Shown in pieces: positions 18,368 through 51,375 of a stretch of 64,000 nt of DNA. Under the pieces are notes generated by a model. The model did not search any database and had not been told where the DNA came from. It was given only the letters and a program-made list of their open reading frames with translations. The translations under genes were made by a program, and so were the position numbers. Numbering within the stretch: the stretch's first letter is position 1; every line of letters begins with the position of its first letter. The stretch comes from a virus. The stretch is taken from the IMG/VR virus record IMGVR_UViG_3300024262_003767. One strand, written 5' to 3'.

Positions 18368-18386
18368 TTAATCCTTTCTTTTTTTA
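18352..18386. terminator. bidirectional hairpin terminator between convergent genes
   Basis: gaaaggattaatttaattaatcctttc perfect inverted repeat followed by a T-run; overlaps both gene ends. Confidence 0.55.
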
Positions 18387-24933: not shown

Positions 24934-24966
24934 TATAAAAAAAGAGGTATTACCTCTCTTTTTTTA
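24934..24966. terminator. hairpin terminator overlapping the 3' end of the hpf gene
   Basis: A-run, agagg-tatta-cctct, T-run. Confidence 0.5.
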
Positions 24967-27324: not shown

Positions 27325-27352
27325 ATTAAAAAGCCTAATTATATTAGGCTTT

Positions 27353-31366: not shown

Positions 31367-31774
31367 TTATTTTTTTTGAAACTTTTTTATACGCTTAATA
31401 GTTTCTTTAAGATCTTCTTCATAATATAATATTAAAAAGTCAACATCCCTCTCATTAATATTATATCTTTTCATTAAATCATCTATCTCTTCTTTTTTAA
31501 ATTTAGATTTGATTTTTGTGGTTTTATTTATTTTAGTTTGCCAATACCAACCAGGTATATTTGTTGTACTACCAAATATTGCGAACCAAATATCTAATGA
31601 TGATGGTTTATTTATATTTTTATTATTAAAAAATTGTGCTTTTTTTATATCCTTATAGGCGAATTTGCGATTGAGAATAAAAAAATTTCTTTCTTTATCA
31701 TCATCAGTAATAAACCTATATTTATCTTTATCTTTGAAGATGATGTTTCCTAAACTTATAAAATCAATTGCCAT
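31367..31774 (-). CDS. hypothetical protein
   Basis: 135-aa ORF. Confidence 0.5.
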   Translation of the reverse strand: MAIDFISLGNIIFKDKDKYRFITDDDKERNFFILNRKFAYKDIKKAQFFNNKNINKPSSLDIWFAIFGSTTNIPGWYWQTKINKTTKIKSKFKKEEIDDLMKRYNINERDVDFLILYYEEDLKETIKRIKKFQKK

Positions 31775-33954
31775 TAATAAAATTGTTTAAATATTTTTGA
31801 GATTTTTTCTTTTGTTATTGGTTTTACAATTTGAAAATCTATATTCTTCTCTACCATATCTGTGGTAGATATTGTAATTATAGTTAACTCTTCATCTATT
31901 TGTTTTAATTTTTCTATGAAATCTAGTATATTAATATTTGATAAACTCATATCTATAAATATTGCATCAATATCACCTAATTTTTCTTCAAGTACATCAA
32001 GTGTTTCCTTTGATGATAGTGTCCATTTAATTTTAACATTCATAGATTTTAACATTATACCTAATAATGAATAGTTTTCAGGTATATCTTCTAATACTAT
32101 CACTTTAATATTAGAAAAATCATACACAATTTTATTAACTTGTTTTGTTTGAATATTTTGAACTTCTTGTAATGGAAGAGTAAAAAAGAATGTGCTTCCT
32201 TCTTTTTGAGTTGAATCTACCCATATATTTCCACCAAGTATATTAACTATACTTTTTGCGATAGATAATCCCAATCCTGTACCTTGGTATTGTTTTTTTG
32301 ATGATGCATCAACTTGCATAAATTTATCAAAAACTATTTCTAATTTATCTTCTGGAATACCAATACCAGTATCTTCAACAAAGAATGTTATAATATTGTC
32401 TTTTATTCTTGTACCAATTCTTATATGTCCACTTTCAGTAAATTTAATTGCATTACTAATCAAATTATATAATACCTGTTTTAATCTAAGAAAATCAGAC
32501 ACTATTATTTCATTATCTTCTCGTTTTTCGAAAGTTAATTTTACCGAATCTATATTCTTTCTAATATTTATATCTATAAAAATTTCTTCTAATTCTTCAA
32601 ATAAATCATTGATTGGGAATCGTTCATATAATAGTTCTAAATTTAATTCACCTGCTTCAATTTTAGCATAATCTAATATGTTATTTAATAATTCTTCTAA
32701 ATGTTTTGCATTAGCATTTATAGTTTTAAGAAATTTTTTATTATTGGTAGTATCAAACTTATCATCTAATAATATATCTGAAAAGCCTATAATCGAATTC
32801 ATTGGCGTTCTTATTTCGTGACTCATATTTGCCAAAAATAGTGACTTTAAAAGATCACTTTTTTCTGCTTCTATTTTTGATTTTTCTAATTCTATTTTAA
32901 TATTTTCTTGTTCTGTAATATCTTTACAATGAATTGCAATATACTCCGTTGAGCCATTATCATTTAAAATGGGATATATGTAATTTTCAAAATATTTATT
33001 ATTTATAACATCAATAAAATGTACTGGTTTGCCTGTAAATATTGCTTCAAGTGTTCTTTTTCTTTTGGGTTCTACACTCTCTTTAGGTAAAATCTGTGAT
33101 ATGTTCACTCCTACTAATTCTTCTCTTGTTTTATTAAAATATTTACAACCTCTATCATTTATTGCTAATAACTCACCTACTTTATTTGTTAAATAAGATG
33201 CACTTAATGTTGAATTTATAATATCTAAGTGTTGTCTCTCCTTTATTTTCATATCAGTAATATCTTGAAATATGGTAACAAAACGATGTGAGTTTTGTTT
33301 ATATGCATCAATTAAAAACCATTTCTGAAAAATATATGAATATTTTTCAAAATGTAAAGTCTTATTATCAGTAAATATTTGAGAATATATCCTTATCCAT
33401 TCACTCGAATCTTTATCTAATATTTCAGTTATATTTTTTCCAATAATTTCTGAATCTAAACCTGTGGTTTCGGTGAACGCTTTATTTATTCTAACAAATT
33501 TATAATCAATAGGTTTGCCACTATTATCAAATATCATTTCATGTAGAGAAAATGCTCGACTCATATTATCAATAATCTTTTCAAGTTCTTCACTTTTAAA
33601 AATATAATCTTTACTTATTTGAGATAAATGTTTTTCATCTTGATATACAACATGTACAAAATTTTCCTCACCTCGATAGATATAATTATATCTCCAACGA
33701 TTAAATTTATCGTCTTTATACTCTTTTAATTCGTGTGTCATACATTCTCCACTATCATACACTTTTAATATTTTATCATAAATACCAAAGTCGATTACTT
33801 TAGAAAAAACATCAACCAATTTTTTATCAATAACATCATATTCAATTCTTTCTACCGTATAAAAATTTTCTGATACTTCGTGAAAATATATATCTTCATC
33901 GATAATTTTATATGTGATAGAAACAAAATCAAAAATTTTTTCAAAATTTTTCAT
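31774..33954 (-). CDS. soluble hybrid sensor histidine kinase (PAS-like repeats + HisKA + HATPase + receiver)
   Basis: H-box SHEIRTPMNSIIGFSDIL; N-box NLISNAIKFT; G1 DTGIGI; G2 GTGLGLSI; C-terminal REC-like VIVLED...IFIDMSL...ITIS..KP; no N-terminal TM segment. Confidence 0.85.
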   Translation of the reverse strand: MKNFEKIFDFVSITYKIIDEDIYFHEVSENFYTVERIEYDVIDKKLVDVFSKVIDFGIYDKILKVYDSGECMTHELKEYKDDKFNRWRYNYIYRGEENFVHVVYQDEKHLSQISKDYIFKSEELEKIIDNMSRAFSLHEMIFDNSGKPIDYKFVRINKAFTETTGLDSEIIGKNITEILDKDSSEWIRIYSQIFTDNKTLHFEKYSYIFQKWFLIDAYKQNSHRFVTIFQDITDMKIKERQHLDIINSTLSASYLTNKVGELLAINDRGCKYFNKTREELVGVNISQILPKESVEPKRKRTLEAIFTGKPVHFIDVINNKYFENYIYPILNDNGSTEYIAIHCKDITEQENIKIELEKSKIEAEKSDLLKSLFLANMSHEIRTPMNSIIGFSDILLDDKFDTTNNKKFLKTINANAKHLEELLNNILDYAKIEAGELNLELLYERFPINDLFEELEEIFIDINIRKNIDSVKLTFEKREDNEIIVSDFLRLKQVLYNLISNAIKFTESGHIRIGTRIKDNIITFFVEDTGIGIPEDKLEIVFDKFMQVDASSKKQYQGTGLGLSIAKSIVNILGGNIWVDSTQKEGSTFFFTLPLQEVQNIQTKQVNKIVYDFSNIKVIVLEDIPENYSLLGIMLKSMNVKIKWTLSSKETLDVLEEKLGDIDAIFIDMSLSNINILDFIEKLKQIDEELTIITISTTDMVEKNIDFQIVKPITKEKISKIFKQFY

Positions 33955-34878: not shown

Positions 34879-34912
34879 TAAAAAAAGGGAGATGAAAGTC
34901 TCCCTTTTTTTT
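34879..34912. terminator. bidirectional rho-independent terminator between convergent genes
   Basis: A-run, gggagatgaaagtctccc, T-run. Confidence 0.7.
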
Positions 34913-36869: not shown

Positions 36870-37331
36870 ATGATTACCATTTTTAAAATATATGAGACTT
36901 GGAATGATGATACCATAGATAAATCGTTATTTGTTAGTGGTCGTGCTAAACATAATCCTAAAGTAAAAAACGATATAATAGAGTATAAAACTGATAATGG
37001 TAAATATGTAGCAAAGATTAAAAAATTGTCAAATGGTAAGTTTATTTGCAAAGTATATAGAATAAGAGACGATGGTAGTAAAATTAGAATTAGAAAGAAA
37101 GTAAAAAAAACGTTACAAACCGCTCATAATTTTATTAGAGAATTTCTAAATGATAGACTTGAAGGTAAAAAAATTAAAAAATCTAAAAAGAAAGAAAACA
37201 AAAAACAAAAGGATGATGATCCTCTTGATAAATTATTTGTGGATATTGACGAACCTGGGTTTTCAGATTCAGATTTTGATTTTAGCGAACCTAAAAAACC
37301 AAGAAAAACTATAATTAGAAGGTTTACTTAA
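36870..37331 (+). CDS. basic Lys-rich protein (possible DNA-binding/histone-like)
   Basis: K-rich throughout (KKIKKSKKKENKKQK); acidic patch before a basic C-terminal tail. Confidence 0.5.
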   Translation: MITIFKIYETWNDDTIDKSLFVSGRAKHNPKVKNDIIEYKTDNGKYVAKIKKLSNGKFICKVYRIRDDGSKIRIRKKVKKTLQTAHNFIREFLNDRLEGKKIKKSKKKENKKQKDDDPLDKLFVDIDEPGFSDSDFDFSEPKKPRKTIIRRFT

Positions 37332-38334
37332 TCTTATTTTCTAAAATATTTTCAATATTTTTAAATTGAGTGTAGGCTATTCTCAACATTTTTATATCAT
37401 TTTCCTTACAATATTTATTTTTAATTTTATCATTTTGTTTCGTATATTTTAATCTTTCTTCACCTCCAAAATGTTCAACAGATTTATAATGTTGTATACC
37501 ATCATATTCCACACACATATTAAGTTCAGGTAAATAAAAATCAAAATGTAAAACTTGTTTATTTTTACATCCATTGAAAGTATATTGAGGTTCAAATTTA
37601 ATATTATTTTCTTTCAAATAATTTAATATTATTTCTTCTCCTTTAGATTGTTTACAACCTGGACAACCAACACCTCGCAAAATAGCGTTTGGTGTTATTT
37701 CCCATATATTATCACATTGATTACATTTTATTTTAACTTTATTATTTGCTTTAATATATTTACCTATAACTTCATATTTATCACCATGTACATTAAAAAC
37801 ATCTTTGATAAATTGTTCAGGTGTTTTTCTTTGTTTTTCACCCTTTTCTTTTGCTGAACATTCTGGACATTCACATTTTGTGTGTGATAAATGATACGGT
37901 TTAATTTTCCATATATTTTCACATATTTTACACCTAACCTTTACTTTTGTATTAGCATTAATATAATCTGATAAAAGTTCATACTTATCACCATAGTTAT
38001 TATTAAATTCTTCTTTAAATTTTTCTGGGGTTTTTCTTTGTTTTAAAACTGCACATTGTTTACAACCTCTACCCCTTAATAATGAATTACCGTTAGTTTT
38101 CCATTTATATCCACATTCATTACATCTAACTTCTATTTCTGATTTAGAATTTATGTAAGGTGATAATGTTGTAAATTTATCACCATAATTTTCCTTTAGT
38201 CTTTTTTGAAACCTTTCTTCTGAAAAACTTTTTGGTGCTAATTCGTGTGTTTCCCTATATTTTTCTTTTAGTTTTTTAAGTATTTTTTCTTTATTTTTTA
38301 GATAATATTGTTTATGCCATTCCTTATTATACAT
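37324..38334 (-). mobile_element. homing-endonuclease-like protein: three zinc-ribbon repeats + C-terminal DUF559/Vsr-like PD-(D/E)xK domain
   Basis: Three ~55-aa repeats each with CxxC...CxxC (CNECGYKW..GCKQCA; CKICENIW..CECPECS; CNQCDNIW..GCPGCK); C-terminal FDFYLPELNMCVEYDGIQHY. Confidence 0.55.
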
Positions 38335-38389: not shown

Positions 38390-39280
38390 TCAAAATATAA
38401 GGCTACTTTTCGTTTCCCAACGTGAATATAATTTTCCGTTCTCCCTCAATATCAAATATTTGTATGTATCTTTAACTTCTTCATTCATACAATCATCATC
38501 AACTACGACAGACATTTCATCAATATCGTAAATTGATGCACCAAAAGGAAGTTTACCTAAATATCTACCATTCTTTACAACATATTCAGAAATTTTATCA
38601 TAAAATATTGAAGATGCGTTTTCTTCAATCCATTTATCAATTTCATTGTTTGTTTCTGATTTGTAAAGTTTCCTAAATGTAATCTGATCTGCACCCATTT
38701 CTTTACATTTATTTAAAACTTCATCAACTGAATATTTATCATAATCATCAACAAGATTTAATGATAATCTAAGATTGAAATCATATTTTTTGATAAGAGA
38801 AATAATTTCATTCATATCAAATTTCAATTTATCTTTACATCCAATTATACTCATATTTTTTTCATTATCAAAAACATTAGATATTGAAAGTGAGATTGTT
38901 GTTACTCCAATATTCCTTAAAAATTTAAGGCTTATATCATCTAATAACACACCTGTACTTTGAATTTCAATACTTTTAAAAGGTGTAATCAATTTTGAAT
39001 TTGTCTCAGAAAAGAATTTCAAAAATGGAAAATTTTGTGTTGGTTCACCTGTACCTGTTAATATAACAACATTACAACCATTATCTCTTGCAAATTGTAA
39101 ACGATTAAAATAATCTTTATATTCAATTGTAGTAGTATCTACATCAACCCAAAATTTATCTTTCTTTTTTAAACAATTAGAAACTTTATCACTATAAGGA
39201 TTTGTGTGCGTCCTACTCACACAAAATTTTACACATTTGTTTTTTGTAGGGACAACAATCGATAAACTCTGTATATTCAT
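38390..39280 (-). CDS. radical-SAM-like TIM-barrel protein with non-canonical Cys motif (tentative)
   Basis: VVILTGTGEPTQNF resembles the radical-SAM GGEP motif; Cys motif CVKFCVSRTH...C (C-x3-C, third Cys displaced) instead of CxxxCxxC. Confidence 0.3.
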   Translation of the reverse strand: MNIQSLSIVVPTKNKCVKFCVSRTHTNPYSDKVSNCLKKKDKFWVDVDTTTIEYKDYFNRLQFARDNGCNVVILTGTGEPTQNFPFLKFFSETNSKLITPFKSIEIQSTGVLLDDISLKFLRNIGVTTISLSISNVFDNEKNMSIIGCKDKLKFDMNEIISLIKKYDFNLRLSLNLVDDYDKYSVDEVLNKCKEMGADQITFRKLYKSETNNEIDKWIEENASSIFYDKISEYVVKNGRYLGKLPFGASIYDIDEMSVVVDDDCMNEEVKDTYKYLILRENGKLYSRWETKSSLIF

Positions 39281-39402
39281 TTCTTTGTATTTTAACGTTA
39301 TAATTTTATTTTATATTGCAAATATATAACTTTTATTCAACACAAAAAAGAAATGTGAAATAATTTATATTAATTATTAACAAATAAAAATCAAAAATAT
39401 TT

Positions 39403-39912
39403 ATGAATTGGTATGTAATACGAGTAGTAACTAGTAAAGAAAAGAAAACAAAAGAATTAATTGAAAAAGAATTGGAACTATATAAATTAGATAATAAAGT
39501 GTCTCAAATTTTGGTTCCAAGTAAGAAAGTGATGCAAATGAGAAATGGTAAAAAATATACTATTGAAAAGAATGATTTTCCAGGATATATTCTCATCGAA
39601 ACGGATAAAGTTGATGAACTAGTTTCAACTATTAAAAATGTTTCAAATGTTTTAGGGTTTTTAGGTGTGACTCACCCAGAACCACTAAGGCAAAGAGAGG
39701 TGGAAACAATCGTTGGTAGACAAAATAACACAATAGTTGAAGATAAATATTTTATTGGTGAAGTTGTAAAAGTCACCGACGGTCCTTTTAACTCATTTGT
39801 TGGTGAAATTATTCTAGTGAATGATAAGAAGAAAGCTGTAAAAGTGAACATTAAAGTTTTTGGACGTGATGTTCCAGTAGATTTGACTTATATTCAGATA
39901 GAAAAGAATTAG
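39403..39912 (+). CDS. nusG: transcription termination/antitermination factor NusG
   Basis: Collinear with E. coli NusG: WYVIRV (NGN), FPGYILIE, KVTDGPFNSFVGEI (KOW), VFGRDVPVDL. Confidence 0.85.
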   Translation: MNWYVIRVVTSKEKKTKELIEKELELYKLDNKVSQILVPSKKVMQMRNGKKYTIEKNDFPGYILIETDKVDELVSTIKNVSNVLGFLGVTHPEPLRQREVETIVGRQNNTIVEDKYFIGEVVKVTDGPFNSFVGEIILVNDKKKAVKVNIKVFGRDVPVDLTYIQIEKN

Positions 39913-39931
39913 AACAAAAACTTTTCTAAAC

Positions 39932-39959
39932 AAAAAAAGAGGCTCACGCCTCTTTTTTT
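39932..39959. terminator. bidirectional rho-independent terminator between nusG and the convergent S1 gene
   Basis: A-run, agaggctcacgcctct, T-run. Confidence 0.7.
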
Positions 39960-39975
39960 GTTTAGAAAAAATGGA

Positions 39976-41106
39976 TTATTCCTCTTTTTCTTTAACTAAG
40001 TTAAGATATATCTTTCTATCATCTTTGATAACAGAAATAACCTTAACTTTTACTTGATCACCTTTCGTTAATTTGGCATTATTCTTCACAAGGTATGTGG
40101 TTTGTATTAACCCCATAGTTTCATAGTCAAGTGAAATTAATGCTCCAAAATTTTTCACATCAATTACTTTTCCTGATAATATTTTACCTACTTTAATTTT
40201 ATCCCAAAGAGACTCTTTTAAAGATTGTGTTAGTATAATCTTTTGACTTTTTGTGATTTCCTTAACATAAAAATCAATTGCCATACCAGGTAGGATTTGG
40301 TGCCATCTATCTTGCCACTCAGTATTTATGTTCATTTTATGAATCATACCTGTAAGACAATTATTGAATTGAACAAATACTCCAAATGGTGTTGTTCCAG
40401 TAACTTCGCCTGCATAAACGACATCATTTTTTAGTTTTTTGATCTCTTCTGGTATAAGTGTCTTAAGATATTTTCTTCGTGAAACAACATAAACCCCCTT
40501 TTCTTGTTGCAATGTCTCTAACATCACATTTAGAGTTTCACCAATAATTGATTCAGGATTTGCGAGTTTATTAACATCAGCTAATGTATTTGGCATAAAC
40601 GCATCGATAGTTACATTATCCATATAAATATCAAGCATATAGCCTGCTGGTATTAATTCCTTCACCTTAGCAACAAGTGATAATCTTTCTTCATAATAAG
40701 TTTTCAATTTATTATGAACATTCATTTTAATTAATTCTGTAATAGATCCTCTTATTAAGAATGGATCGTCTTGAATTGATGTTATTAGTACATCAATTTG
40801 TGAACCAGGCTCTAACCCTATCACTAATTTTCCTTTTGGTGTGTCAACATAAATGTAGTCTTTATACCCAAAATCAACAGTTATTTCTGTATCATCTATA
40901 GATACTATCACACCTTTGATTATTTCCCCTTCTCTTACTTCTCTTAAATCAAGAAAAGTTTTTTCCATCATACGATAAAGATTTTGATAATCTTCAGTAA
41001 GATTAGATAAATCACCTTTTACTTTGATTATTTCTCTATCATTAGTTAGAAACGGAAAAGGATCAGGAAGTGATCCTACATTTACGCCTTCGATTAATTT
41101 CGACAT
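39976..41106 (-). CDS. S1 RNA-binding-domain repeat protein (ribosomal protein S1-like, ~4 S1 domains)
   Basis: Repeated S1 signatures: GEIIKGVIVSIDDTEITVDFG, GEVTGTTPFGVFVQFNNCLTGMIH, GKILSGKVIDVKNFGALISL. Confidence 0.7.
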   Translation of the reverse strand: MSKLIEGVNVGSLPDPFPFLTNDREIIKVKGDLSNLTEDYQNLYRMMEKTFLDLREVREGEIIKGVIVSIDDTEITVDFGYKDYIYVDTPKGKLVIGLEPGSQIDVLITSIQDDPFLIRGSITELIKMNVHNKLKTYYEERLSLVAKVKELIPAGYMLDIYMDNVTIDAFMPNTLADVNKLANPESIIGETLNVMLETLQQEKGVYVVSRRKYLKTLIPEEIKKLKNDVVYAGEVTGTTPFGVFVQFNNCLTGMIHKMNINTEWQDRWHQILPGMAIDFYVKEITKSQKIILTQSLKESLWDKIKVGKILSGKVIDVKNFGALISLDYETMGLIQTTYLVKNNAKLTKGDQVKVKVISVIKDDRKIYLNLVKEKEE

Positions 41107-41175: not shown

Positions 41176-41832
41176 TTACTTTTCTTTATCTTCTTTGTAA
41201 ATATTTTGTTTTCTTTGTGAAGGTAATTGCTCGGTATGAGTCCAAACTTCTGTATCATAGATACTTTCTTCTTGAATTTCTTGTGTTGTGCTAAGAGCCC
41301 AATCTATATCCAAATATAAAAATTTGAAAGTTAATGAGAATGTTTGTTCTGATATGTCTTGTATATTATATGCAAGTCTAAGTTCAGATTCTGATTTCCA
41401 TAAAACTGAACGAAACTTAACTACATAAATCACATCTCCATCCTTATCAAGAATATCTAAAGTTAACCAAGGCATATAATATTTTCTTGTATTATTATAA
41501 TATTCAGTTAGTATTTGTCTTAACATGAAATAGTTGGCATGCGAATCTATACTTCTAAATGTTATATCTAATTCTTGGGAATTTAAATCGTGAATATTTT
41601 GTGTTGGTTTATATTCAATTTGTTTACTATATTTATGAACCTGTTGTGAACCATCAATTTGCATTGATGGAAAAACAATTTCTTTTATTGTTGAATTTAA
41701 GTAATCAATAGGTTTATTATATGGTATAAAATTCTTATCCATAAACCTTTGAAGTTTATCATTTGTTTCTTCTGAAACAAAATCAGTTGGAAAATTAAAC
41801 TTAAATTGATTATTTTGTGATCCTAATCTCAT
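41176..41832 (-). CDS. hypothetical protein
   Basis: 218-aa ORF in a co-oriented block with the 614-aa ORF. Confidence 0.5.
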   Translation of the reverse strand: MRLGSQNNQFKFNFPTDFVSEETNDKLQRFMDKNFIPYNKPIDYLNSTIKEIVFPSMQIDGSQQVHKYSKQIEYKPTQNIHDLNSQELDITFRSIDSHANYFMLRQILTEYYNNTRKYYMPWLTLDILDKDGDVIYVVKFRSVLWKSESELRLAYNIQDISEQTFSLTFKFLYLDIDWALSTTQEIQEESIYDTEVWTHTEQLPSQRKQNIYKEDKEK

Positions 41833-41846: not shown

Positions 41847-42188
41847 TTATCCTGCAACACCACCTGCGCCAGGAACATTTTCACTATCATCTGTACTTTC
41901 ATTTGATAAATCTTGAAAGGCGATAGTCGTATTTTGTACTGTTACTGTTGGAATATCAGAAGTTTGATTGTTGCTGTATCTCTTTAATGGTAGCACTTCT
42001 AATGCTTCTATGTATGGACTTTTTAACAATTCTCTATATAACTCTTCTGATATTTCAGAAGCTACAATTATATTACCAGATTGATATACAACTGAACCAC
42101 CTTCATTTTTAATTAAGTTAGATATTTCAGGATTAAATGTTGAAGCTATTACTGATTCTGCTGTATTATTAGATGATGATGTTGCCAT
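41847..42188 (-). CDS. hypothetical protein
   Basis: 113-aa ORF. Confidence 0.45.
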   Translation of the reverse strand: MATSSSNNTAESVIASTFNPEISNLIKNEGGSVVYQSGNIIVASEISEELYRELLKSPYIEALEVLPLKRYSNNQTSDIPTVTVQNTTIAFQDLSNESTDDSENVPGAGGVAG

Positions 42189-42205: not shown

Positions 42206-44050
42206 TTAAGTTGCTCTTATTTGCTCTGCTGGTGAACTTGTTACAGAACTTCGTGATTTCGTGTAAATTATTAACGTTTTACCTGCTTTTGGTTGCCATC
42301 CAGTATTTCCAATATTTACTGGTTTAATATTTGATGTATTAGATGAACTTAATGAACCATCATCCGTTATAGTTATACCATCTTCAACAAATCTAACATC
42401 TTCATAAAATGTGAACGTACCTGAGTATAATAATGTTTTTAATTTGTTGGCTTCTAACGCTATATAAAAATTATTATATCCCTTATCATATATTTTCTTT
42501 AGTACATTTAAATCATTTTCAGCAATTTTAAAATTAACTATACCTAATGTGAAATTATTTGTAGATTCTTTAAAAATTGATTTTTCAATTGATTCTGAAT
42601 CAGATTTAAATATTAATTTAACATCTGAACCTTTTGTTAATTCTGATAAATTAAAAGGTTGTAAACTTTTATTATTTATTAATTTTCCAAGTTTAAATTG
42701 AATCACATTATCAAACGGGGTTATAATTATGTTCAATAACCCCATACCTTTATAATTTTGTGGTTGTGAACTCTTTGGACTATTTACAATAACTTTACCA
42801 ACATCTATTAGAAGAGGATAAGGTATTTTTCTAATTTCAGTCACAAGAGGCTTAGTGCTAAAATCCCTATTAAGTTGAATTTGCTCTGGTTTAGCATTGT
42901 ATATCTTTAAATTATTAATATTTCCAACATCAAGAGAAATTAATCTTTTACCATATTTATGAATACTATCCCTAATTCCAAGTGTTGTAAATCTCACAAT
43001 TTGTGACATATCAACCAAATCAACAACTCTCATTGTAACTTTAATGGCAGCGGTTGTATTAGAGAATGTCATAATTGGTCTATAATATAATTTCTTTGTG
43101 AATATAGCTAAACCTAATGTTGGATCTTCTTCAACAGAAAATGTTTGTTTTGACGTTTGAATATTTTCTTCATAAAGATATACATCATATTCAAATTTTA
43201 CTCGTCTACCTTTTGTATATACATCTTCAATAAATTCGTTAAGATTCTCATTTGATTCACCATAAGTGCCATATATTTCAAAAAAATCACCTTCAGTAGA
43301 TTCTTCGACTTTAACTGCAAGAGTTTGATATTCAGGTGTTTGTGGTATAGACATTCTATACTCATTTGTGGCATAATAGTAATTCACCCCTAATATCGTA
43401 TCTTTACTAGTTAAAAATCTAAAATCTAAGAATATAGGTGCAGTTTGACTTAATCCTTCATGACTTGTTGTTAAATTATAATTTATAGTATTAGGTATTA
43501 CACTATTTGTGTTATCACTTAAAACTCGTTGATTAGATACGTAATTTATAGAAGGCACCTCAAATTCAAAATATTTACCCCATTCAATTTCATCATATAT
43601 GAATGGTATTGCCAAATTCAATAATGTTGAACCACTACGAGCATCTGTATTATCATAGAAAATGTTACTTAGATTATATGTTTTTGTATTATCAAATCCA
43701 TAAGCGAATGTTTTTAAATAAAATCCAACATAACCTTCTGTTTCAAAATTGTAATTTGTTGGTAAATAAACTCTTACCCTATCATATTGTATTGGTGCTG
43801 AACTATAATCTTGTTCTTGTAGATAATTATAACTATTATCAAATACGGTATATTTTCTTAAAACTGGATCGATTTGAAATAAGTTTCTACTTTTACTATT
43901 TAAAAGTGATGTTGAAAGGAAATTTTTCGTATTGTTTTCGTTAATATTTGTTATTATCTGATAATTCTCTGATATAAAATTATTACTATCAAATCCCCAC
44001 TCAATTAATACTTTTGGGTTTATTTTTATATACTTAGAAACAGTCGCCAT
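42206..44050 (-). CDS. large hypothetical protein (possibly virion structural)
   Basis: 614 aa, N/S/T/Y-rich; no catalytic motif seen. Confidence 0.5.
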   Translation of the reverse strand: MATVSKYIKINPKVLIEWGFDSNNFISENYQIITNINENNTKNFLSTSLLNSKSRNLFQIDPVLRKYTVFDNSYNYLQEQDYSSAPIQYDRVRVYLPTNYNFETEGYVGFYLKTFAYGFDNTKTYNLSNIFYDNTDARSGSTLLNLAIPFIYDEIEWGKYFEFEVPSINYVSNQRVLSDNTNSVIPNTINYNLTTSHEGLSQTAPIFLDFRFLTSKDTILGVNYYYATNEYRMSIPQTPEYQTLAVKVEESTEGDFFEIYGTYGESNENLNEFIEDVYTKGRRVKFEYDVYLYEENIQTSKQTFSVEEDPTLGLAIFTKKLYYRPIMTFSNTTAAIKVTMRVVDLVDMSQIVRFTTLGIRDSIHKYGKRLISLDVGNINNLKIYNAKPEQIQLNRDFSTKPLVTEIRKIPYPLLIDVGKVIVNSPKSSQPQNYKGMGLLNIIITPFDNVIQFKLGKLINNKSLQPFNLSELTKGSDVKLIFKSDSESIEKSIFKESTNNFTLGIVNFKIAENDLNVLKKIYDKGYNNFYIALEANKLKTLLYSGTFTFYEDVRFVEDGITITDDGSLSSSNTSNIKPVNIGNTGWQPKAGKTLIIYTKSRSSVTSSPAEQIRAT

Positions 44051-45291: not shown

Positions 45292-45495
45292 ATGAAAACG
45301 TTAAAGAAAAACAATGAAATTAAAAGAGTAAAAGATTCTTCACCATCAGACGAGGCACAAATTCAAAGTTTATTAAACTCTGGATGGAAATATTGTCCGA
45401 AAAGTGAATGGAAAGCAACAAGACCTGTAAAGGAAAAAGTTGACAAGAAAAAAGTTGACAAGAAAGAGAATAAAAAAAGAGGTATAGATTCGTGA
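45292..45495 (+). CDS. small Lys-rich protein with tandem KKVDKK repeat
   Basis: 15-bp tandem repeat gaaaaagttgacaag x2 encoding KVDKKKVDKK. Confidence 0.4.
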   Translation: MKTLKKNNEIKRVKDSSPSDEAQIQSLLNSGWKYCPKSEWKATRPVKEKVDKKKVDKKENKKRGIDS

Positions 45496-46370
45496 GTTTA
45501 AAATTGAAAAAAATTGTAAAATCAACACATGATAATACAATTAAATACATTTATTACACCAACGACAATTTAATTATAGAATTTTCTTACATAGATAAAA
45601 ATGATGGTAAAAATATTATATGTGCACCATCACAAACAATGTGTAATATTGGTTGTAAATTTTGTCACACCACAGATCATATTGGAAAAATCAAAACTAG
45701 AAATTTAACGGAATATGAAATATCTGATGGTGTTGAATATATATATAATGATTTGAATTTATCAAAAAATCCAAAAACATTATTGATATCATATATGGGT
45801 TGTGGTGAACCAATTCTCAATGTAGATGGTGTAGTTAACTCTATGCGTATCATAAACGAGATGTATGATGTATATACAAGGTTTGCAATTGCAACATCAA
45901 TACCAGAATATAAATATATTGAATTTTTTAATTTTACTAATAAAATTGATGAATTAAAATTACCAGTAAAATTACACTTATCGTTACACTATACTATGGA
46001 TCAAATTAGATCGCAATGGATGCCAAAATCTATGAATATTATTGAATCTTTAGCTGCTGTTGATTTTTTCAAAAAGAAAACTAATAATTCAGTTGAAATA
46101 CATTACGCTTTACTTGATGGTGTTAATGATACTGAACAAGATGCAATACTTTTAACTAATTTAATAAAAGATAGAGACTTTAATGTAAAATTTTTATTTT
46201 ATAATAAAAGAGAGATATTGGATATTGAACCATCAGACAAACAAAAATTGAGAACATTTAAAAGATATTTCAATAAATATAATATTGAACATGAGTATTA
46301 TATACCACCAGGATTAGATGTTGGGGCATCATGTGGACAATTCTTAATGGAAGAATATACCGAAAAATAA
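45492..46370 (+). CDS. RlmN/Cfr-family radical SAM RNA methyltransferase, short form lacking the N-terminal domain
   Basis: IICAPSQTMCNIGCKFCHT (RlmN: vSsQvGCal.CkFCsT), MGCGEPILN (GMGEPLLN), C-terminal VGASCGQF (AACGQL). Confidence 0.75.
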   Translation: MSLKLKKIVKSTHDNTIKYIYYTNDNLIIEFSYIDKNDGKNIICAPSQTMCNIGCKFCHTTDHIGKIKTRNLTEYEISDGVEYIYNDLNLSKNPKTLLISYMGCGEPILNVDGVVNSMRIINEMYDVYTRFAIATSIPEYKYIEFFNFTNKIDELKLPVKLHLSLHYTMDQIRSQWMPKSMNIIESLAAVDFFKKKTNNSVEIHYALLDGVNDTEQDAILLTNLIKDRDFNVKFLFYNKREILDIEPSDKQKLRTFKRYFNKYNIEHEYYIPPGLDVGASCGQFLMEEYTEK

Positions 46371-46380: not shown

Positions 46381-46914
46381 ATGAAAGTAATAGTAATTAA
46401 TGGTACAGCACAAACTGGAAAGGATAAGTTTGTCTCTTTTTTTAATGAAGTCGCAACCGAACTAAGAGTAAAGAATTATTCATCAATTGATAGAGTTAAA
46501 CAAATAGCCGAAATATGTTTTGGTTGGGACACTAAAAAGAATGATAAATCTAGAAGATTTTTATCAGAAATTAAAAGAATTTGGACTGATTTTAATGATG
46601 GTCCGTTTGAGGTTATTAAAAATCAAATAGATGTTGATATAATATATTCAAAAAATAATAATAAAGATGTAAGTAAAAATATCTATTTTATACATATACG
46701 AGAACCAGAAGAAATAAAAAAAGTTAAAAAATATTACGATATTTTCTGTGTTACACTTTTAATAAAAAAAGATGTAGATTTTATTCCTGATAATGATTCA
46801 GATAAAAATGTTGAAAATTTTGATTATGATTATATTGTAGATAATAATGGTTCAGAAGAAGAATTAAAAATACGAGCCGAAGAATTTCTAACACACATAA
46901 AAAAAACCTTGTAA
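46381..46914 (+). CDS. deoxynucleoside monophosphate kinase (T4 gp1-like)
   Basis: N-terminal MKVIVINGTAQTGKDKF parallels T4 gp1 MKLIFLSGVKRSGKDT (Walker A ending in GKD). Confidence 0.55.
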   Translation: MKVIVINGTAQTGKDKFVSFFNEVATELRVKNYSSIDRVKQIAEICFGWDTKKNDKSRRFLSEIKRIWTDFNDGPFEVIKNQIDVDIIYSKNNNKDVSKNIYFIHIREPEEIKKVKKYYDIFCVTLLIKKDVDFIPDNDSDKNVENFDYDYIVDNNGSEEELKIRAEEFLTHIKKTL

Positions 46915-46933
46915 GAAATTACAAGGTTTTTTT
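46901..46933. terminator. bidirectional terminator between the dNMP kinase gene and the convergent clpB
   Basis: A-run, ccttgtaagaaattacaagg, T-run; hairpin overlaps the stop codon. Confidence 0.65.
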
Positions 46934-46955: not shown

Positions 46956-49472
46956 TTAGGCTTCTAAAAGTGGAGTTTCATCTTTTGGTGGTAATTCTTT
47001 ACTATTCAAATTAACAATAGTAATCTCACCATCTTTACTTCTAAGTGAAACTTTATCACCAATTTTAATTTCACCATTGAGAATAGCATCTGTTAGAGTA
47101 TCTTCAATGTGTCGTTGAATTGCTCTTTTCAATGGTCTTGCACCATATTCAGCATCCCATCCTTCTTCAAATAAGAAGTCTTTAAGTGACTTTGTGATAT
47201 TTACAACATAACCAATATCTTTAAGTCTATCGAGAGTTGTTTTAATTTCAAGGTCAATAATTCTGAAAATGTTGTCTTTTGAAAGAGCGTTGAACATTAT
47301 AAGTTCATCAACTCTATTAAGAAATTCTGGTGCAAATTTCTTTTTCAATTCTTTATCAATAACAGCGTTCTTCTTATCTTGAATGTTTTTGTTGGTGGCA
47401 TTTGTTTGAAATCCCATACCTGTACCAAAATCTTTAAGTTGTCTTGAACCTGTATTCGATGTCATTATGATAATTGCGTTTTTAAAATTAACTCTTCTAC
47501 CATAACTATCAGTAAGAATTCCATCATCAAGAACTTGTAGAAGTATATTAAATACGTCTGGATGCGCTTTTTCCATTTCATCAAGAAGAACAATTGAATA
47601 TGGTTTTCTTCTGATGGCTTCAGTTAATTCACCACCATCATCATAACCAACATATCCTGGAGGCGCTCCAATCAATTTTGAAACTGAATGTTTTTCCATA
47701 TATTCAGACATATCAATTCTAATGAGGTTTTCTTCTGAACCAAAGAGTTCTTTTGCTAGAACCTTTGCTAAGTAAGTTTTACCGACACCTGTAGCACCTA
47801 AGAACATAAATGTTCCGACAGGTTTTTTAGGATCTTTGATACCAATTCTACTACGTTTGATTGAACGAACAATTTTATCAACAGCATCATCTTGTCCAAT
47901 AACAATATTTTTCATTTTAGTTCCAAGATTTCTCAATTTGTTTGATTCATCATCATCAACAGCATCAAGTGGGATTTTGGTCATCATTGAAACAACTTCA
48001 GCAATATCTTCTTTTCCAACGATTTCACGATTTTCGTCCAATTTTTCGTTCCATTCCTCTTTCAATTTTTTCAATTGTTCTGTAAGGTTTCTTTCTTTAT
48101 CTCTCCAAGAAGCAGCTTTTTCAAATTTCTGTTCGTCAACACATTCAGTTTTCTTTTTCTCGGCTTCTGAAATTTTACTTTCAAGAATAGAAATAGCTTT
48201 AGGTTGATTTGAATTTGAATCTACATGAACTTTGGCACCAGCTTCATCCAAAGCGTCAATTGCTTTATCTGGCATAAATCTATCATTCATATATTTATCA
48301 GTCAATTTTACACAAGCTTCAATTGCTTCATCTGTGTACACGACTTTGTGATAATCCTCATATCTAACTTTGAGTTGTTTAAGGATTTCAATAGTTTCTT
48401 CAATGGTAGTAGGTTCTACCACAACTTTTTGAAATCTTCTTTCTAATGCACCATCTTTTTCAATATGTTTTCTATATTCTTCGAGAGTAGTTGCACCAAT
48501 ACATTGGAATGTTCCTCTTGCTAATGCTGGTTTTAACATATTAGATGCATCAAGTGAACCTTGTGCGCTACCAGCACCAATAATTGTATGAATTTCATCA
48601 ATAAAAAGTATAATGTTTGATGTTTCTTCAATTTCTTTGATAATTCCTCTTAAACGAGATTCAAATTCGCCACGATATTTTGTTCCTGCAACAAGGGCAC
48701 CCATATTAAGGGTGAAAATTCTTTTATCTTTAATGTTGTTTGGCACTTTACCATCAACAATTCGTTGTGCTAAACCTTCAACAATTGCAGATTTGCCAAC
48801 TCCAGGCTCACCTATAAGAATAGGATTATTTTTCTTTCTACGTGAAAGAATTTGACTTATTCTTTTAATCTCAATTTTTCTACCAACAACTGGATCGAGA
48901 GAACCTTCTTTTGCTTTTTTGGTAATATCTTCACCAAATTGTTCAATAAGTTTAGGTTTCTTATTTTTATTTGATGCTGTTGTATCACTATGATGCATTT
49001 CTGGATCATCCCAATCTGCACTATTACTTATTCCAGTAACTTTTTCGTGTAATTTTTTAATTATCTCACCTTCATCAATTTTTGAAAACATATCATTTAA
49101 AATATTATTTTTAGTATTTAAGAGTGAAAGTAATACTACATCAGTATCAACATATTTGACATCCATTTCATCAATTATTCCAACACAATTTTCAAGTATG
49201 TCCGTAACTTCTTGTGATAATTGTACTTTATCTTTTCTCTCTGCCAATTGAATATGCTCCATTTGGTTTCTCATTACCAAAGCATCTTGAATAGTTTTTT
49301 TGATTGTTGGAATACGAATATCAATTTCTTGAAGAACTTGATAAGCACGATAATTTTCATCCTCAATTAGAGCCAAAAACAAGTGTTCTGGTTCAATTTC
49401 AGATGATTTATATTGCAACGCAATCGTCTTACTATTCTTAATCACATTATCTACGTCTTTGTTAAAGTTCAT
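46956..49472 (-). CDS. clpB: ClpB/ClpC-family AAA+ chaperone (two nucleotide-binding domains)
   Basis: N-terminal Clp-N repeats; NBD1 GEPGVGKS + LFIDEIH; NBD2 [10 protein letters not shown] + [14 protein letters not shown]; sensor GARPLKR. Confidence 0.9.
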
Positions 49473-49538
49473 AATTAATTTTTTTAGTTATAATTTATAT
49501 ATTTAATTTTCTTTATAGGAGTTTTCCTCTTTTGTTTA

Positions 49539-49760
49539 TTAAAATAAATTGAAAATATCAATGTTTTTTGTTTCTCTCTCAAATATCATACCAAGATAAA
49601 ATAATGGAAAAAAGATAATAGATGCTACCCAAATATATATTCCTCGTACAAACCAAGCTGGTTTGATAAATGGTATCGCCCAATTTTTATATAAGTCCCA
49701 ATCTTCTTTCACAAAATTTAGATAAATATATAACATATATTTTGCTATAAATATTTTCAT
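49539..49760 (-). CDS. small membrane protein
   Basis: 73 aa, two hydrophobic segments. Confidence 0.35.
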   Translation of the reverse strand: MKIFIAKYMLYIYLNFVKEDWDLYKNWAIPFIKPAWFVRGIYIWVASIIFFPLFYLGMIFERETKNIDIFNLF

Positions 49761-49777
49761 TCGTTTTTTATTATTTT

Positions 49778-50080
49778 TTAATCTTTCTCAATCGTGAGTG
49801 TTAATCCTTGTTCTTCAAGTGCGGATTTAAAAGGTTTTAATTTATCTTTTGAACCAGTTTTTAAGATACTCGCACCTTTCATATGAACTGTCCAAGCTGT
49901 GTTTTCAGCTTTTTCTGGACTAAAACTCATAATTGATATCAGACATAAAATTACATGATCAAAAGAATTGACTTCATCATTCCATAAAATCAATTTATAG
50001 ACTTTATCATCCGATGGTTCAATACCCGCTTTACTGAGTATTTCTTCTAATGTTTTTGTTATTTCTTTTGTGTCGCTCAT
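49778..50080 (-). CDS. clpS: ATP-dependent Clp protease adaptor ClpS
   Basis: YKLILWNDEVNSFDHVI...AENTAWTVHMKGAS, typical ClpS core. Confidence 0.85.
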   Translation of the reverse strand: MSDTKEITKTLEEILSKAGIEPSDDKVYKLILWNDEVNSFDHVILCLISIMSFSPEKAENTAWTVHMKGASILKTGSKDKLKPFKSALEEQGLTLTIEKD

Positions 50081-51375
50081 ATTCCTAATTCCTCTTTATA
50101 TAGTTTAACAGTATTAAAGTTTCCAGTATATTTTCCTTCACTATCAGACAACTTTACACAATCTCTCCAAACTTTCATTCCTTCAGGTAAGGCTTCAGAC
50201 ATCTTAATTACCATATTTAAAGGTTTTGCCTTTTTTAAAGTTTCCATAAAATAACCACCATTTGGATTTGGTATCGATTCCCAATTAAATTGGTTATGAT
50301 AATCTTCATCATAGATACCATTTTGTGAAACCAAAACAACATCGTTTGATAGCCAAGTACCTATACCATAGGAAGATAATATTTTATTTCTCACACAATT
50401 TTCAATTGTTTTAATTTTTTCTATACTATTTATAGAGTCAGAAAATACAATTGTTTTTGGAATCATACCATTAGGCATTTTAATACCTTTATTTATGTAA
50501 TGTTTGATAGTTTTTTCTGCGAATTCAACAGGTTCACCAGAATCTTGACGAACACCGTCAAATAATTTTGAATAAAATAAATCAAAACCTTCAAAGAAAA
50601 TATCTGTTGTATATGTATCAGAAAGTGCAATTCCTAATGCTCCTTTATAAGCATCTACCCAACGACCCATTCCTACACGATTAGCCATCATCACACCGTA
50701 TTTAGCAGCGTGAAACATAAACCATTCGTGTGCCTGAGTTCCAATTGCTTTAATACCATATTTACGAGCAAACATCACATTGGATGTACCAACGATTGTT
50801 TTTGGTGCAACTTTCAAAAATTCTTCAATAACTCTACCTTGGATAAATTTTGAAAATCTTCTGCGGGTTCCAAATTCAGATAATGAAATTCCAAGTTCAG
50901 ATAATTGTTTAAATTTTTCATCCCAAATTTCCATTGACTTTTCTAAGTCAACTTCTTCACCTGAGAAAAGGAAGAATAATTCTGATATTAAAGCCATTAA
51001 TTGAACTTCCCAAAATATAGTTTTGTGCCAAAAACCTTCAATTTCTATTTCTAATACACCATTTTTTTGAGTAACTTTAACTTCATTAGGATCATATTGA
51101 TAACTCCTAAGATACATATAATAGGAAATATCAAAGAATGGAAGTTTACTTTTCAAATGTTCTTCAATTTCTTTGGTAAATTTTAAATTTTTGAAATGAG
51201 CAATCTGTTCTTTTAACTCGGTAGCAAAACCTTTTGGAAATTTACGGGTTTTATCTCTGAGTATGAACTTATACTTAACCTTAGCGTTAGGATAGTGTTT
51301 TAGTATGGCAAATTGCATGAAATACTTATAGGCGTCCTGATCATCAAATTCGGTAATTATTGGTTTAAATCTCAT
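50077..51375 (-). CDS. pncB: nicotinate phosphoribosyltransferase
   Basis: Collinear with E. coli PncB: DAYKYFMQ, FWEVQLMALISE, FGTRRRFS, GTSN, GTQAHEW. Confidence 0.9.
   Translation of the reverse strand: MRFKPIITEFDDQDAYKYFMQFAILKHYPNAKVKYKFILRDKTRKFPKGFATELKEQIAHFKNLKFTKEIEEHLKSKLPFFDISYYMYLRSYQYDPNEVKVTQKNGVLEIEIEGFWHKTIFWEVQLMALISELFFLFSGEEVDLEKSMEIWDEKFKQLSELGISLSEFGTRRRFSKFIQGRVIEEFLKVAPKTIVGTSNVMFARKYGIKAIGTQAHEWFMFHAAKYGVMMANRVGMGRWVDAYKGALGIALSDTYTTDIFFEGFDLFYSKLFDGVRQDSGEPVEFAEKTIKHYINKGIKMPNGMIPKTIVFSDSINSIEKIKTIENCVRNKILSSYGIGTWLSNDVVLVSQNGIYDEDYHNQFNWESIPNPNGGYFMETLKKAKPLNMVIKMSEALPEGMKVWRDCVKLSDSEGKYTGNFNTVKLYKEELGI

What the first reader, a model, noticed from the sequence alone, without database searches (positions are those of the whole stretch)
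39403..41106. Phage-encoded NusG and a multi-S1-domain protein in a convergent pair sharing a terminator
The NusG ORF is essentially full length (NGN+KOW) and clearly homologous to bacterial NusG. The convergent 376-aa ORF carries about four S1 domains, like a shortened ribosomal protein S1. These are core host transcription/translation factors rarely found in phages. They may adapt RNAP processivity and translation initiation on the AT-rich, Shine-Dalgarno-poor phage mRNAs.
Basis: partly seen in the sequence, partly recalled or inferred. Interest (0 to 1): 0.5.

Follow-up and report, generated by a model that had tools for sequence, protein, structure and literature searches.

The report
Megaphage copies of NusG and S1
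A fragment of a very large virus of Bacteroidota bacteria carries its own copies of two host gene-expression factors, NusG and a shortened ribosomal protein S1; both are real and conserved, but this kind of gene was already reported in huge phages.

Summary
ORF 39403-39912(+) is a full-length NusG. It passes the NCBIfam housekeeping nusG cutoff and fails the LoaP, UpxY and RfaH cutoffs. ORF 39976-41106(-) is colinear with domains 1-4 of bacterial ribosomal protein bS1: an N-terminal helix plus four OB barrels in the AlphaFold model. A perfect 20-bp hairpin with an A-tract and a T-tract lies between them.

The window is phage DNA. Close, syntenic relatives lie on viral contigs of up to about 500-700 kb. 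The gene just upstream of S1 has a tail-tube fold. The nearest GenBank phages are the 634-735 kb "Mahaphage" genomes.

The NusG is closest to housekeeping NusG of Bacteroidota (45-53% identity). The S1 belongs to a large family of about 370-400 aa that is far from cellular bS1.

Three points weaken the idea of a special pair. The same bidirectional terminators mark most convergent junctions in the window. NusG-S1 adjacency is confined to one sub-clade. S1 is more widely linked to the upstream tail-gene cluster.

Shine-Dalgarno motifs are absent upstream of 87 genes, but that is a trait of the host phylum. Phage rpS1, and its link to missing Shine-Dalgarno sites, was published in 2020. Verdict: a new member of a known kind, of modest interest.

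The parts
39281..39402 (.). Divergent intergenic region between the radical-SAM-like gene (-) and NusG (+); presumed promoters, not mapped
   Evidence: ORF layout and sequence. A loosely conserved AACTTTT-like motif lies upstream of NusG in relatives but is not enriched across the window.
39403..39912 (+). NusG, 169 aa (NGN + KOW); single + strand gene between - strand genes
   Evidence: TIGR00922 144.3 bits vs cutoff 135.7; LoaP 92.6 vs 125; UpxY 49 vs 100; RfaH 35 vs 144.5. Pfam NGN 69.7 bits. phrog_6386. Full-length match to solved NusG. 45-53% identical to Bacteroidota housekeeping NusG.
39924..39967 (.). Bidirectional intrinsic-terminator-like hairpin: 20-bp perfect stem, 4-nt loop, A-tract on one side and T-tract on the other
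   Evidence: z -10.3 and -8.7. Hairpins of the same type but different sequence sit at the same place in relatives.
39976..41106 (-). Four-domain bS1-like protein, 376 aa
   Evidence: Colinear with E. coli bS1 residues 8-347. AF2 model. Foldseek best hits are bS1. More than 100 homologues of 370-400 aa.
40996..41106 (-). S1 residues 1-37: family-specific N-terminal extension (conserved ELIEGVNIGxLPDPFPF motif), low confidence in the model
   Evidence: Alignment A1, invariant D15 and F17; pLDDT <50 for 1-11 and 23-32; no match in cellular bS1.
40951..40995 (-). S1 residues 38-52: helix positionally equivalent to the N-terminal helix of E. coli bS1
   Evidence: HMMER aligns residues 46-54 with E. 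coli 8-16; helix 38-52 in the model.
40744..40923 (-). S1 OB domain 1 (residues 62-121), degenerate
   Evidence: Model; Pfam S1 18.8 bits, below cutoff; aligned with E. coli domain 1.
40480..40680 (-). S1 OB domain 2 (residues 143-209), degenerate
   Evidence: Model; no Pfam hit; aligned with E. coli domain 2.
40228..40419 (-). S1 OB domain 3 (residues 230-293), canonical S1 domain
   Evidence: Pfam S1 35.7 bits; FG.F...H motif visible.
39997..40182 (-). S1 OB domain 4 (residues 309-370), canonical S1 domain
   Evidence: Pfam S1 41.3 bits.
41176..41832 (-). 218-aa protein with a tail-tube/Hcp fold, directly upstream of S1 and co-directional with it
41847..42188 (-). 113-aa conserved protein of the same co-directional cluster, function unknown
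42206..44050 (-). 614-aa conserved protein, first gene of the cluster that ends with S1; function unknown (tail sheath is an untested guess)
   Evidence: No Pfam, PHROG or PDB-sequence hit; homologues upstream of S1 in 37 loci.

Best explanation
The window is a fragment of a contractile-tailed huge phage ('megaphage', related to the Mahaphage/Lak group) that most likely infects Bacteroidota. It carries two host-derived gene-expression factors as separate transcription units. (1) A monocistronic nusG descends from housekeeping Bacteroidota NusG. It keeps the NGN core (FPGY motif) and the KOW 'FGR' surface. It has lost about 8 N-terminal residues, and its interdomain linker is roughly 5-9 residues shorter than in the aligned Bacteroidota NusGs. 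(2) A 376-aa bS1-like protein has the helix + D1 + D2 part that anchors E. coli bS1 to the 30S subunit, plus two canonical RNA-binding S1 domains (D3, D4). It lacks D5 and D6. It is the last gene of a conserved tail-gene cluster. Inferred mechanism: phage NusG takes the NusG site on the host RNA polymerase and keeps elongation and ribosome coupling going on very AT-rich phage DNA, either by supplementing or by replacing host NusG. Phage S1 docks on host 30S subunits in place of, or alongside, host bS1 and captures the A-rich, unstructured, SD-less leaders of phage mRNAs. The hairpin between the genes is an ordinary bidirectional intrinsic terminator that insulates the two convergent units. Shown here: gene identities, domain anatomy, phage context, origin of NusG, terminator structure, absence of SD motifs, and conservation. 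Inferred: binding partners, timing of expression, and any benefit to the phage.
For: Identity of the two genes. Phage context: the best GenBank phage hits for both proteins are the 634-735 kb genomes LR756501-4 and LR745206. S1 homologues of 62-66% identity lie in the same gene order on 531-kb and 235-kb contigs, and the protein P0073 occurs on a contig of up to 711 kb. There are 53 IMG/VR viral loci, on contigs of up to 676 kb. The neighbouring gene has a tail-tube fold. PHROG hits include homing endonucleases, SbcCD and a virion protein. There is no secE/rplK context, no tRNA and no rRNA. NusG origin: the next-best hits after phage relatives are Bacteroidota NusGs (45-53% identity). One of them lies in tuf-secE-nusG-rplKAJL-rpoB. 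In an NJ tree the syntenic phage NusGs form one clade (bootstrap 56) next to Bacteroidota NusGs and far from RfaH. FPGY, F153, G154 and R155 are conserved. Ribosome-anchoring anatomy: chains showing ribosome-bound bS1 D1-D2 match the model with target TM 0.58-0.70. SD-less, A-rich leaders: GGAG occurs in 1 of 87 upstream regions against 1.4 expected; A is 55-69% and G 2-9% at positions -19 to -9. Bacterial-type punctuation: 24 terminator-like strand-sites against 0-5 in shuffles. Purifying conservation: mean column identity is 65% over 28 S1 sequences reaching down to 54% pairwise identity. Precedent: PMC7162821.
Against: No direct evidence that either protein binds host RNAP or ribosomes. The S1 scores far below every NCBIfam rpsA cutoff (best 124 vs 624), so it is not an orthologue of cellular bS1 in the curated sense. 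The first 37 residues are a family-specific extension of unknown role. The residues that E. coli bS1 uses to contact uS2 could not be checked against a Bacteroidota ribosome. S1 sits in a tail-gene cluster, which could point to late expression or even a virion-associated role rather than early takeover. Whether this phage also encodes its own RNA polymerase is unknown, because only 64 kb is available. The host assignment rests on NusG similarity, SD-less leaders and published predictions for related genomes, not on a CRISPR spacer match.
Confidence: 0.6

Rival explanations
1. The segment is host (bacterial) chromosome or a misbinned bacterial contig, so both genes are ordinary cellular copies.
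For: Both proteins are of cellular types. Some 'phage' database records with NusG are evidently bacterial DNA, for example MW495066, where nusG sits in tRNA-Trp-secE-nusG-rplK-rplA.
Against: There is no secE/rplK context here. The adjacent gene has a tail-tube fold. Homologues with the same gene order lie on IMG/VR viral contigs and on contigs of up to 531 kb. The closest GenBank records are curated huge phages. The S1 is 376 aa and only 18-23% identical to the cellular bS1 chains it matches. The window has no tRNA or rRNA.
Confidence: 0.03
2. The phage NusG is a functional analogue of RfaH, LoaP or UpxY. It occupies the NusG site on RNAP to exclude host NusG, and so blocks Rho-dependent silencing of AT-rich foreign DNA (an anti-Rho decoy or dedicated antiterminator), rather than acting as a general NusG.
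For: Rho/NusG silencing of xenogenes and phage counter-measures are well established (PMC7819879). PHROG labels the family 'transcription antiterminator'. The N-terminus and linker are shortened relative to Bacteroidota NusG. The genome is 26% GC.
Against: The sequence scores as housekeeping NusG, not as a specialised paralogue. From my memory of the E. coli NusG-Rho/S10 interface (G146, V148, L158, V160, I164, F165, R167), the equivalent phage residues are identical or conservative (G134, I136, V146, V148, V152, F153, R155). The KOW domain therefore shows no obvious loss of partner binding.
Confidence: 0.2
3. The S1-like protein does not act on the ribosome. It is a free RNA-binding protein (mRNA chaperone or protector, or cofactor of a phage RNA enzyme, as E. 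coli S1 is for Q-beta replicase), or a protein made with and possibly packaged alongside the tail proteins.
For: It is the terminal gene of a conserved tail-gene cluster. It fails all rpsA cutoffs. It has a unique conserved N-terminal extension. The S1 fold is widespread, and Al-Shayeb et al. themselves caution that true rpS1 is hard to confirm. S1 domains D1-D2 also bind Q-beta replicase (PDB 4q7j and 4r71 among the hits).
Against: The colinear match is specifically to bS1 D1-D4, including the degenerate D1-D2 pair and the preceding helix that typify ribosome-anchored bS1. Generic S1-domain proteins lack that arrangement.
Confidence: 0.3
4. NusG and S1 form a dedicated phage module that couples transcription to translation initiation. 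NusG on RNAP and S1 on the 30S together deliver nascent SD-less phage mRNA to ribosomes, and this explains their adjacency.
For: In E. coli both proteins take part in 30S-RNAP complexes and in two mRNA-delivery routes (PMC10983998; PDB 9gux holds both). The convergent pair is kept in 16 of 53 IMG/VR loci and in L001-L004. Five of the six S1-bearing LR huge-phage genomes also carry NusG.
Against: The adjacency disappears in all loci with S1 identity of 57% or less, and the two genes lie 170-370 kb apart in the LR genomes. They are convergent and separated by a terminator, so they are not co-transcribed. Lak phages have an S1 homologue but no detected NusG. The pattern fits inherited gene order within one lineage.
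Confidence: 0.12

Closest known systems
rpS1 genes of huge phages (Al-Shayeb et al. 2020, Nature 578:425; PMC7162821), e.g. in LR756501-LR756504 and LR745206
   Same: Homologous proteins (47-53% identity over 63-89% of the query). Same clade of Bacteroidota-predicted megaphages. Same association with genomes that lack SD motifs.
   Different: That paper mentions up to six S1 domains and gives no domain-level anatomy. Here the family is fixed at helix + four OB domains, about 370-400 aa. In this sub-clade the gene lies next to NusG, whereas in the LR genomes the two genes are far apart.
Bacterial ribosomal protein bS1 (E. coli rpsA, 557 aa, six S1 domains)
   Same: Colinear with residues 8-347: N-terminal helix, degenerate D1-D2, canonical D3-D4. 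Best structural matches.
   Different: Lacks D5-D6. About 20% identity. Far below the rpsA HMM cutoffs. Has a 37-residue family-specific N-terminal extension. Encoded beside tail genes rather than in a cellular context.
Housekeeping NusG of Bacteroidota (TIGR00922; secE-nusG-rplK locus)
   Same: Passes the equivalog cutoff. 45-53% identity. Same NGN and KOW motifs. Groups next to Bacteroidota NusG in the tree.
   Different: About 10-15 residues shorter (no N-terminal tail, shorter linker). Monocistronic in a phage genome.
Specialised NusG paralogues RfaH, LoaP and UpxY
   Same: An extra NusG-family copy carried on horizontally mobile DNA, plausibly favouring expression of AT-rich foreign operons.
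   Different: Scores below all three family cutoffs (92.6/125, 49/100, 35/144.5). No evidence for an ops-like recruitment site or for a KOW fold switch.
Phage-encoded ribosomal protein bS21 (10.1101/2021.10.11.463225; also PMC7162821)
   Same: A small-subunit initiation-related ribosomal protein encoded by phages of Bacteroidota. That paper's title and abstract link its expression to late replication. Here S1 also sits beside structural genes.
   Different: A different protein and a different binding site on the ribosome. No expression data exist for this S1.

Membership tests
NusG proper (NCBIfam TIGR00922 equivalog) | Whole-protein score above the curated cutoff, full-length match | tested here: met
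   144.3 bits vs 135.7; residues 3-168 on model positions 1-171 of 172.
NusG proper | N-terminal NGN domain followed by a C-terminal KOW domain | tested here: met
   Pfam NGN 69.7 bits. Pfam KOW reaches only 19.7 vs 22.3, but residues 110-168 align with solved NusG KOW domains (2mi6, 6duq, 2kvq) and the FGR motif is kept.
NusG proper | Cellular secE-nusG-rplK gene context | tested here: not met
   Flanked by a radical-SAM-like gene and the S1-like gene. This is expected for a phage copy. The Bacteroidota relative P0191 does have that context.
NusG proper | Binds RNAP clamp helices through NGN, and Rho or uS10 through KOW | not testable with these tools
   Only motif conservation could be seen (FPGY, F153, G154, R155).
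RfaH / LoaP / UpxY specialised paralogues | Score above the family-specific HMM cutoff | tested here: not met
   LoaP 92.6 vs 125; UpxY 49 vs 100; RfaH 35.2 vs 144.5. RfaH is a distant long branch in the tree.
Ribosomal protein bS1 (rpsA equivalogs) | Score above a curated rpsA cutoff | tested here: not met
   Best scores are 124.3 vs 624 (IspH-S1 fusion model), 120.4 vs 524, 105.6 vs 577 and 88 vs 368.
Ribosomal protein bS1 | Tandem S1/OB domains colinear with bS1, with divergent D1-D2 followed by canonical RNA-binding domains | tested here: met
   Single colinear alignment to E. coli residues 8-347. Four barrels in the model. Pfam passes for D3 and D4 only. D5 and D6 are absent.
Ribosomal protein bS1 | N-terminal helix plus D1 that dock on uS2 of the 30S subunit | tested here: inconclusive
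   A positionally equivalent helix (38-52) precedes D1. Ribosome-bound D1-D2 chains superpose with target TM 0.58-0.70. The contact residues and a Bacteroidota uS2 partner were not examined.
Ribosomal protein bS1 | Physical association with ribosomes | not testable with these tools
   Requires biochemistry or cryo-EM.
Huge-phage rpS1 family (Al-Shayeb 2020) | Homology to the S1-like ORFs of curated huge-phage genomes, and occurrence on very large viral contigs | tested here: met
   47-53% identity to LR756501/3, LR745206 and LR756502. Relatives on contigs of 464-711 kb.
Bidirectional intrinsic terminator | Stem with a G+C-rich core and a U-tract on both transcribed strands, placed between convergent genes | tested here: met
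   20-bp stem with 6 G-C pairs, A7 and T7 tracts, 8-11 nt from both stops. Actual termination was not tested.
Contractile-tail tube protein fold (218-aa neighbour) | Tail-tube/Hcp beta-sandwich fold | tested here: met
   [not shown]

The most novel reading that the evidence does not exclude
In this megaphage sub-clade, the phage NusG on host RNA polymerase and the four-domain phage S1 on the host 30S subunit work as a matched pair. Together they hand nascent, SD-less phage transcripts directly to ribosomes. This would be a virus-encoded transcription-translation coupling and initiation system that bypasses the host's own bS1/NusG route.
Probability: 0.12. Interest if true: 0.7.

Novelty: new member of a known kind. 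Interest (0 to 1): 0.3.

Why it matters
Huge phages carry parts of the host gene-expression machinery, and how they use them has not been tested experimentally. This locus offers a well-defined pair of candidates. One is a NusG that still looks like the housekeeping factor of the host phylum. The other belongs to a large, length-constrained family of S1 proteins that keep the ribosome-anchoring half and two RNA-binding domains. Bacteroidota initiate translation without Shine-Dalgarno pairing, so S1-type mRNA capture may be especially important there. A phage version could therefore be a direct tool for studying, or redirecting, SD-independent initiation. As a discovery, though, it extends published observations rather than opening a new category.

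Tried and rejected
(1) Alternative genetic code, as in Lak phages. Rejected for this window: under code 11, 87 ORFs cover 90% of the sequence, with stops TAA 71, TGA 9 and TAG 7.

(2) PDB entry 28jw, 'Ribosomal protein S1 homologue', as a possible phage S1 structure. It is a plastid ribosome: the same entry holds a plastid-specific ribosomal protein, and 9tvu is the Chlamydomonas chlororibosome.

(3) A Bacteroidota-type promoter (TAnnTTTG) upstream of NusG. A loose AACTTTT-like motif recurs in relatives, but related patterns are not clearly enriched upstream of genes in the window. Left unresolved.

(4) Sequence-profile searches of the 218-aa and 614-aa neighbour families against the PDB found nothing. 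Only the fold search identified the 218-aa protein. The 614-aa protein remains unassigned, and 'tail sheath' is a guess.

(5) Literature searches for phage-encoded NusG or S1 homologues found no paper that discusses NusG in huge phages. There was only an annotation line in the supplementary GenBank files of PMC7162821.

(6) Rfam and tRNA scans of the window were empty.

(7) The first NJ tree attempt timed out and was redone with a faster distance routine. It is a simple distance tree with biased bacterial sampling (only Bacteroidota were recovered by the word-based search), and support is modest.
Full report
**Observation**

ORF 39403-39912(+) encodes 169 aa.
- It matches Pfam NusG/NGN at 69.7 bits.
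- It scores 144.3 bits on the NCBIfam housekeeping model TIGR00922, whose cutoff is 135.7, aligned over model positions 1-171 of 172.
- It fails the specialised-paralogue models: LoaP 92.6 vs 125, UpxY 49 vs 100, RfaH 35 vs 144.5.
- It aligns end to end with solved NusG proteins (E 3e-29).

ORF 39976-41106(-) encodes 376 aa.
- HMMER aligns residues 46-371 in one colinear stretch with E. coli bS1 residues 8-347, which are domains 1 to 4 of 6. A family profile gives the same result.
- An AlphaFold2 model built on 28 homologues (pLDDT 75.7) shows a low-confidence, unstructured N-terminal region up to about residue 32, a helix at 38-52, and four beta-barrels at 62-121, 143-209, 230-293 and 309-370.
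- Its best Foldseek matches are E. coli bS1 chains (E 1.4e-22). Chains that show only ribosome-bound D1-D2 superpose with target-normalised TM of 0.58-0.70.
- Scanned domain by domain, only D3 (35.7 bits) and D4 (41.3 bits) pass Pfam's S1 cutoff. D1 reaches 18.8 bits and D2 has no hit. Degenerate D1-D2 followed by canonical RNA-binding domains is the pattern of true bS1, not of generic S1-domain proteins.

Between the two stop codons, 39924-39967 forms a perfect 20-bp stem with a 4-nt loop, an A7 tract on one side and a T7 tract on the other. It folds at -32.1 and -30.7 kcal/mol on the two strands, with z-scores of -10.3 and -8.7.

**Is it phage?**

The window is 26% GC. It has no tRNA and no Rfam match. 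Under the standard code it is 90% coding.

Several lines place it in a huge phage:
- In the GenBank phage collection, the best tblastn hits for both proteins are the 634-735 kb uncultured phage genomes LR756501-4 and LR745206. Lak megaphages also appear for S1. These LR records fit the Mahaphage clade of Al-Shayeb et al. [quoted passage not shown]
- The S1 protein has more than 100 close metagenomic homologues of 370-400 aa, some on contigs of 531 and 711 kb.
- Two of these were fetched. A 531-kb contig and a 235-kb contig show the same gene order as the window: ClpB-like ... about 600 aa - small ORFs - about 215 aa - S1 >< NusG - (radical SAM) ... thymidine kinase - histidine kinase.
- A scan of IMG/VR gave 53 viral loci, on contigs of up to 676 kb.
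- Other window genes hit PHROGs for homing endonucleases, SbcCD, a CCA-adding enzyme and a virion protein.

That context does occur around the Bacteroidota relative P0191.

**Origin of the two genes**

NusG:
- After 15 phage relatives (62-77% identity), the next hits are NusGs named as Bacteroidia, Bacteroidales or Saprospiraceae, at 45-53% identity.
- In an NJ tree, the 27 NusGs from syntenic phage loci form one clade (bootstrap 56) beside the Bacteroidota NusGs. They lie apart from E. coli and B. subtilis NusG and far from RfaH. The LR756501 NusG nests inside the Bacteroidota group, which suggests more than one acquisition.
- Compared with Bacteroidota NusG, the phage protein lacks about 8 N-terminal residues, and its linker is roughly 5-9 residues shorter. 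It keeps FPGY, F153, G154 and R155.
- From my memory of the E. coli NusG KOW-Rho/S10 interface, all equivalent positions are identical or conservative. The KOW domain therefore shows no obvious loss of partner binding.

S1:
- It is only 18-23% identical to the cellular bS1 chains it matches and is far below every rpsA cutoff.
- An exhaustive search of 1.84 billion cluster representatives found 132 clusters with E<=1e-30. Nearly all of the best 150 are about 340-420 aa and aligned over most of their length.
- It is thus a deep, length-constrained family of its own. Its cellular source is unresolved.

**Is the pair special?**

Three results argue against that.

1. The terminator is generic. Perfect A-tract/stem/T-tract hairpins occur at other convergent junctions: 18350-18380, 27326-27356, 34880-34911 and 46901-46932. 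They also occur at 63790-63819, 7140-7164 and 24943-24957. That makes 24 strand-sites against 0-5 in shuffles. Relatives have hairpins of the same design but different sequence between S1 and NusG, and L002 has two.
2. Adjacency is clade-limited. NusG lies convergent, 26-1664 bp downstream of S1, in L001-L004 and in 16 of 53 IMG/VR loci. These are all loci but one with S1 identity of 61% or more. NusG is never within 6 kb in loci with identity of 57% or less. In the LR genomes the two genes are 170-370 kb apart.
3. S1's linkage to the upstream genes is wider. The 218-aa tail-tube-fold family precedes S1 in 47 of 58 loci. The 614-aa family does so in 37, including distant loci.

S1 is therefore the last gene of a tail-gene cluster. 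NusG is a monocistronic unit on the opposite strand. The hairpin insulates them from each other.

**Shine-Dalgarno question**

In the 87 upstream regions, SD-like motifs are at or below background: GGAG in 1 against 1.4 expected, GGAGG in 0. Positions -19 to -9 are 55-69% A and 2-9% G.

It is, however, the normal state of Bacteroidota genes (PMC3155529 and PMC6847099, listed). The correlation between phage rpS1 and missing SD motifs is already in Al-Shayeb et al..

**Mechanism (inferred)**

Phage NusG most likely binds the host RNAP at the NusG site and supports processive, ribosome-coupled elongation on AT-rich phage DNA. An RfaH-like anti-Rho role is the main alternative.

Phage S1 most likely docks on host 30S through its helix + D1-D2 and captures A-rich leaders with D3-D4. 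The alternatives are a free RNA-binding role or a tail-associated role.

In E. coli, bS1 and NusG each provide a route for delivering nascent mRNA to the 30S (PMC10983998). A joint phage module is therefore conceivable, but the synteny data do not require it.

**Novelty**

Phage rpS1 in huge phages is published. I found no paper that discusses phage NusG.

What is added here:
- the domain-level anatomy of the four-domain S1 family;
- the Bacteroidota housekeeping origin of the NusG;
- the tail-cluster position of S1;
- the lineage-specific S1/NusG arrangement.

This is a new member of a known kind. Interest 0.3.

Noticed in passing
window 18350-18380, 27326-27356, 34880-34911, 46901-46932, 63790-63819 (also 7140-7164, 24943-24957): Perfect bidirectional A-tract/stem/T-tract hairpins sit at most convergent gene junctions: 24 strand-sites against 0-5 in 20 shuffles. 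The genome appears to be punctuated throughout by bacterial-type intrinsic terminators.
   Followed up: partly
[not shown]
   Followed up: partly
L062 (MW495066.1, 'Microcystis phage MaAM05', 35341-41859): The NusG hit in this GenBank 'phage' lies in tRNA-Trp-secE-nusG-rplK-rplA, followed by other cellular-type genes. It looks like bacterial DNA inside a phage record. Several other NusG or S1 'phage' hits (Salmonella, Listeria, Staphylococcus and Acinetobacter MD-2021a contigs) are probably bacterial too.
   Followed up: partly
window 37324-38334 (-) and 61267-62148 (-): Two HNH/homing-endonuclease-like ORFs (phrog_559; the first at E 1.4e-84, with CapR and treble-clef zinc-finger repeats). 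The first is absent at the same position in the relatives L002 and L003, as expected for a mobile insertion.
   Followed up: no
window 46956-51375 (-): A ClpB/ClpA-like AAA+ protein (838 aa), ClpS (100 aa) and a nicotinate phosphoribosyltransferase (432 aa) lie in a row, and the arrangement is conserved in relatives. This is a phage-encoded proteolysis-adaptor and NAD-salvage set.
   Followed up: no
window 31774-33954 (-) and 28206-29465 (-): A hybrid histidine kinase with PAS, HisKA, HATPase and receiver domains (726 aa), and a CCA-adding tRNA nucleotidyltransferase (419 aa). The 64-kb window nevertheless contains no tRNA gene.
   Followed up: no
window 38390-39280 (-) and 45492-46370 (+): Two radical-SAM-like ORFs with weak Pfam hits. 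The first is divergent from NusG and is conserved next to it in 9 loci.
   Followed up: no
window 39281-39402 and homologous regions of L002-L050: A loosely conserved AACTTTT-like motif lies about 45-75 nt upstream of the NusG start in most relatives and is reminiscent of the Bacteroidota -7 promoter element TAnnTTTG (perfect in L010 and L050). It is not clearly enriched upstream of other window genes.
   Followed up: partly
L059 (LR756501.1) versus the syntenic phage NusG clade: The NusG of the 735-kb phage nests among Bacteroidota NusGs rather than with the NusGs of the window's clade. This hints at independent acquisitions of NusG by different megaphage lineages.
   Followed up: partly
window 41847-42188 (-) and loci L003, L007, L009-L019: The 113-aa protein shares its first ~80-110 residues with the N-terminal part of larger proteins (367-507 aa) encoded at the same position in relatives. 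This suggests domain shuffling or truncation in this slot of the tail cluster.
   Followed up: no
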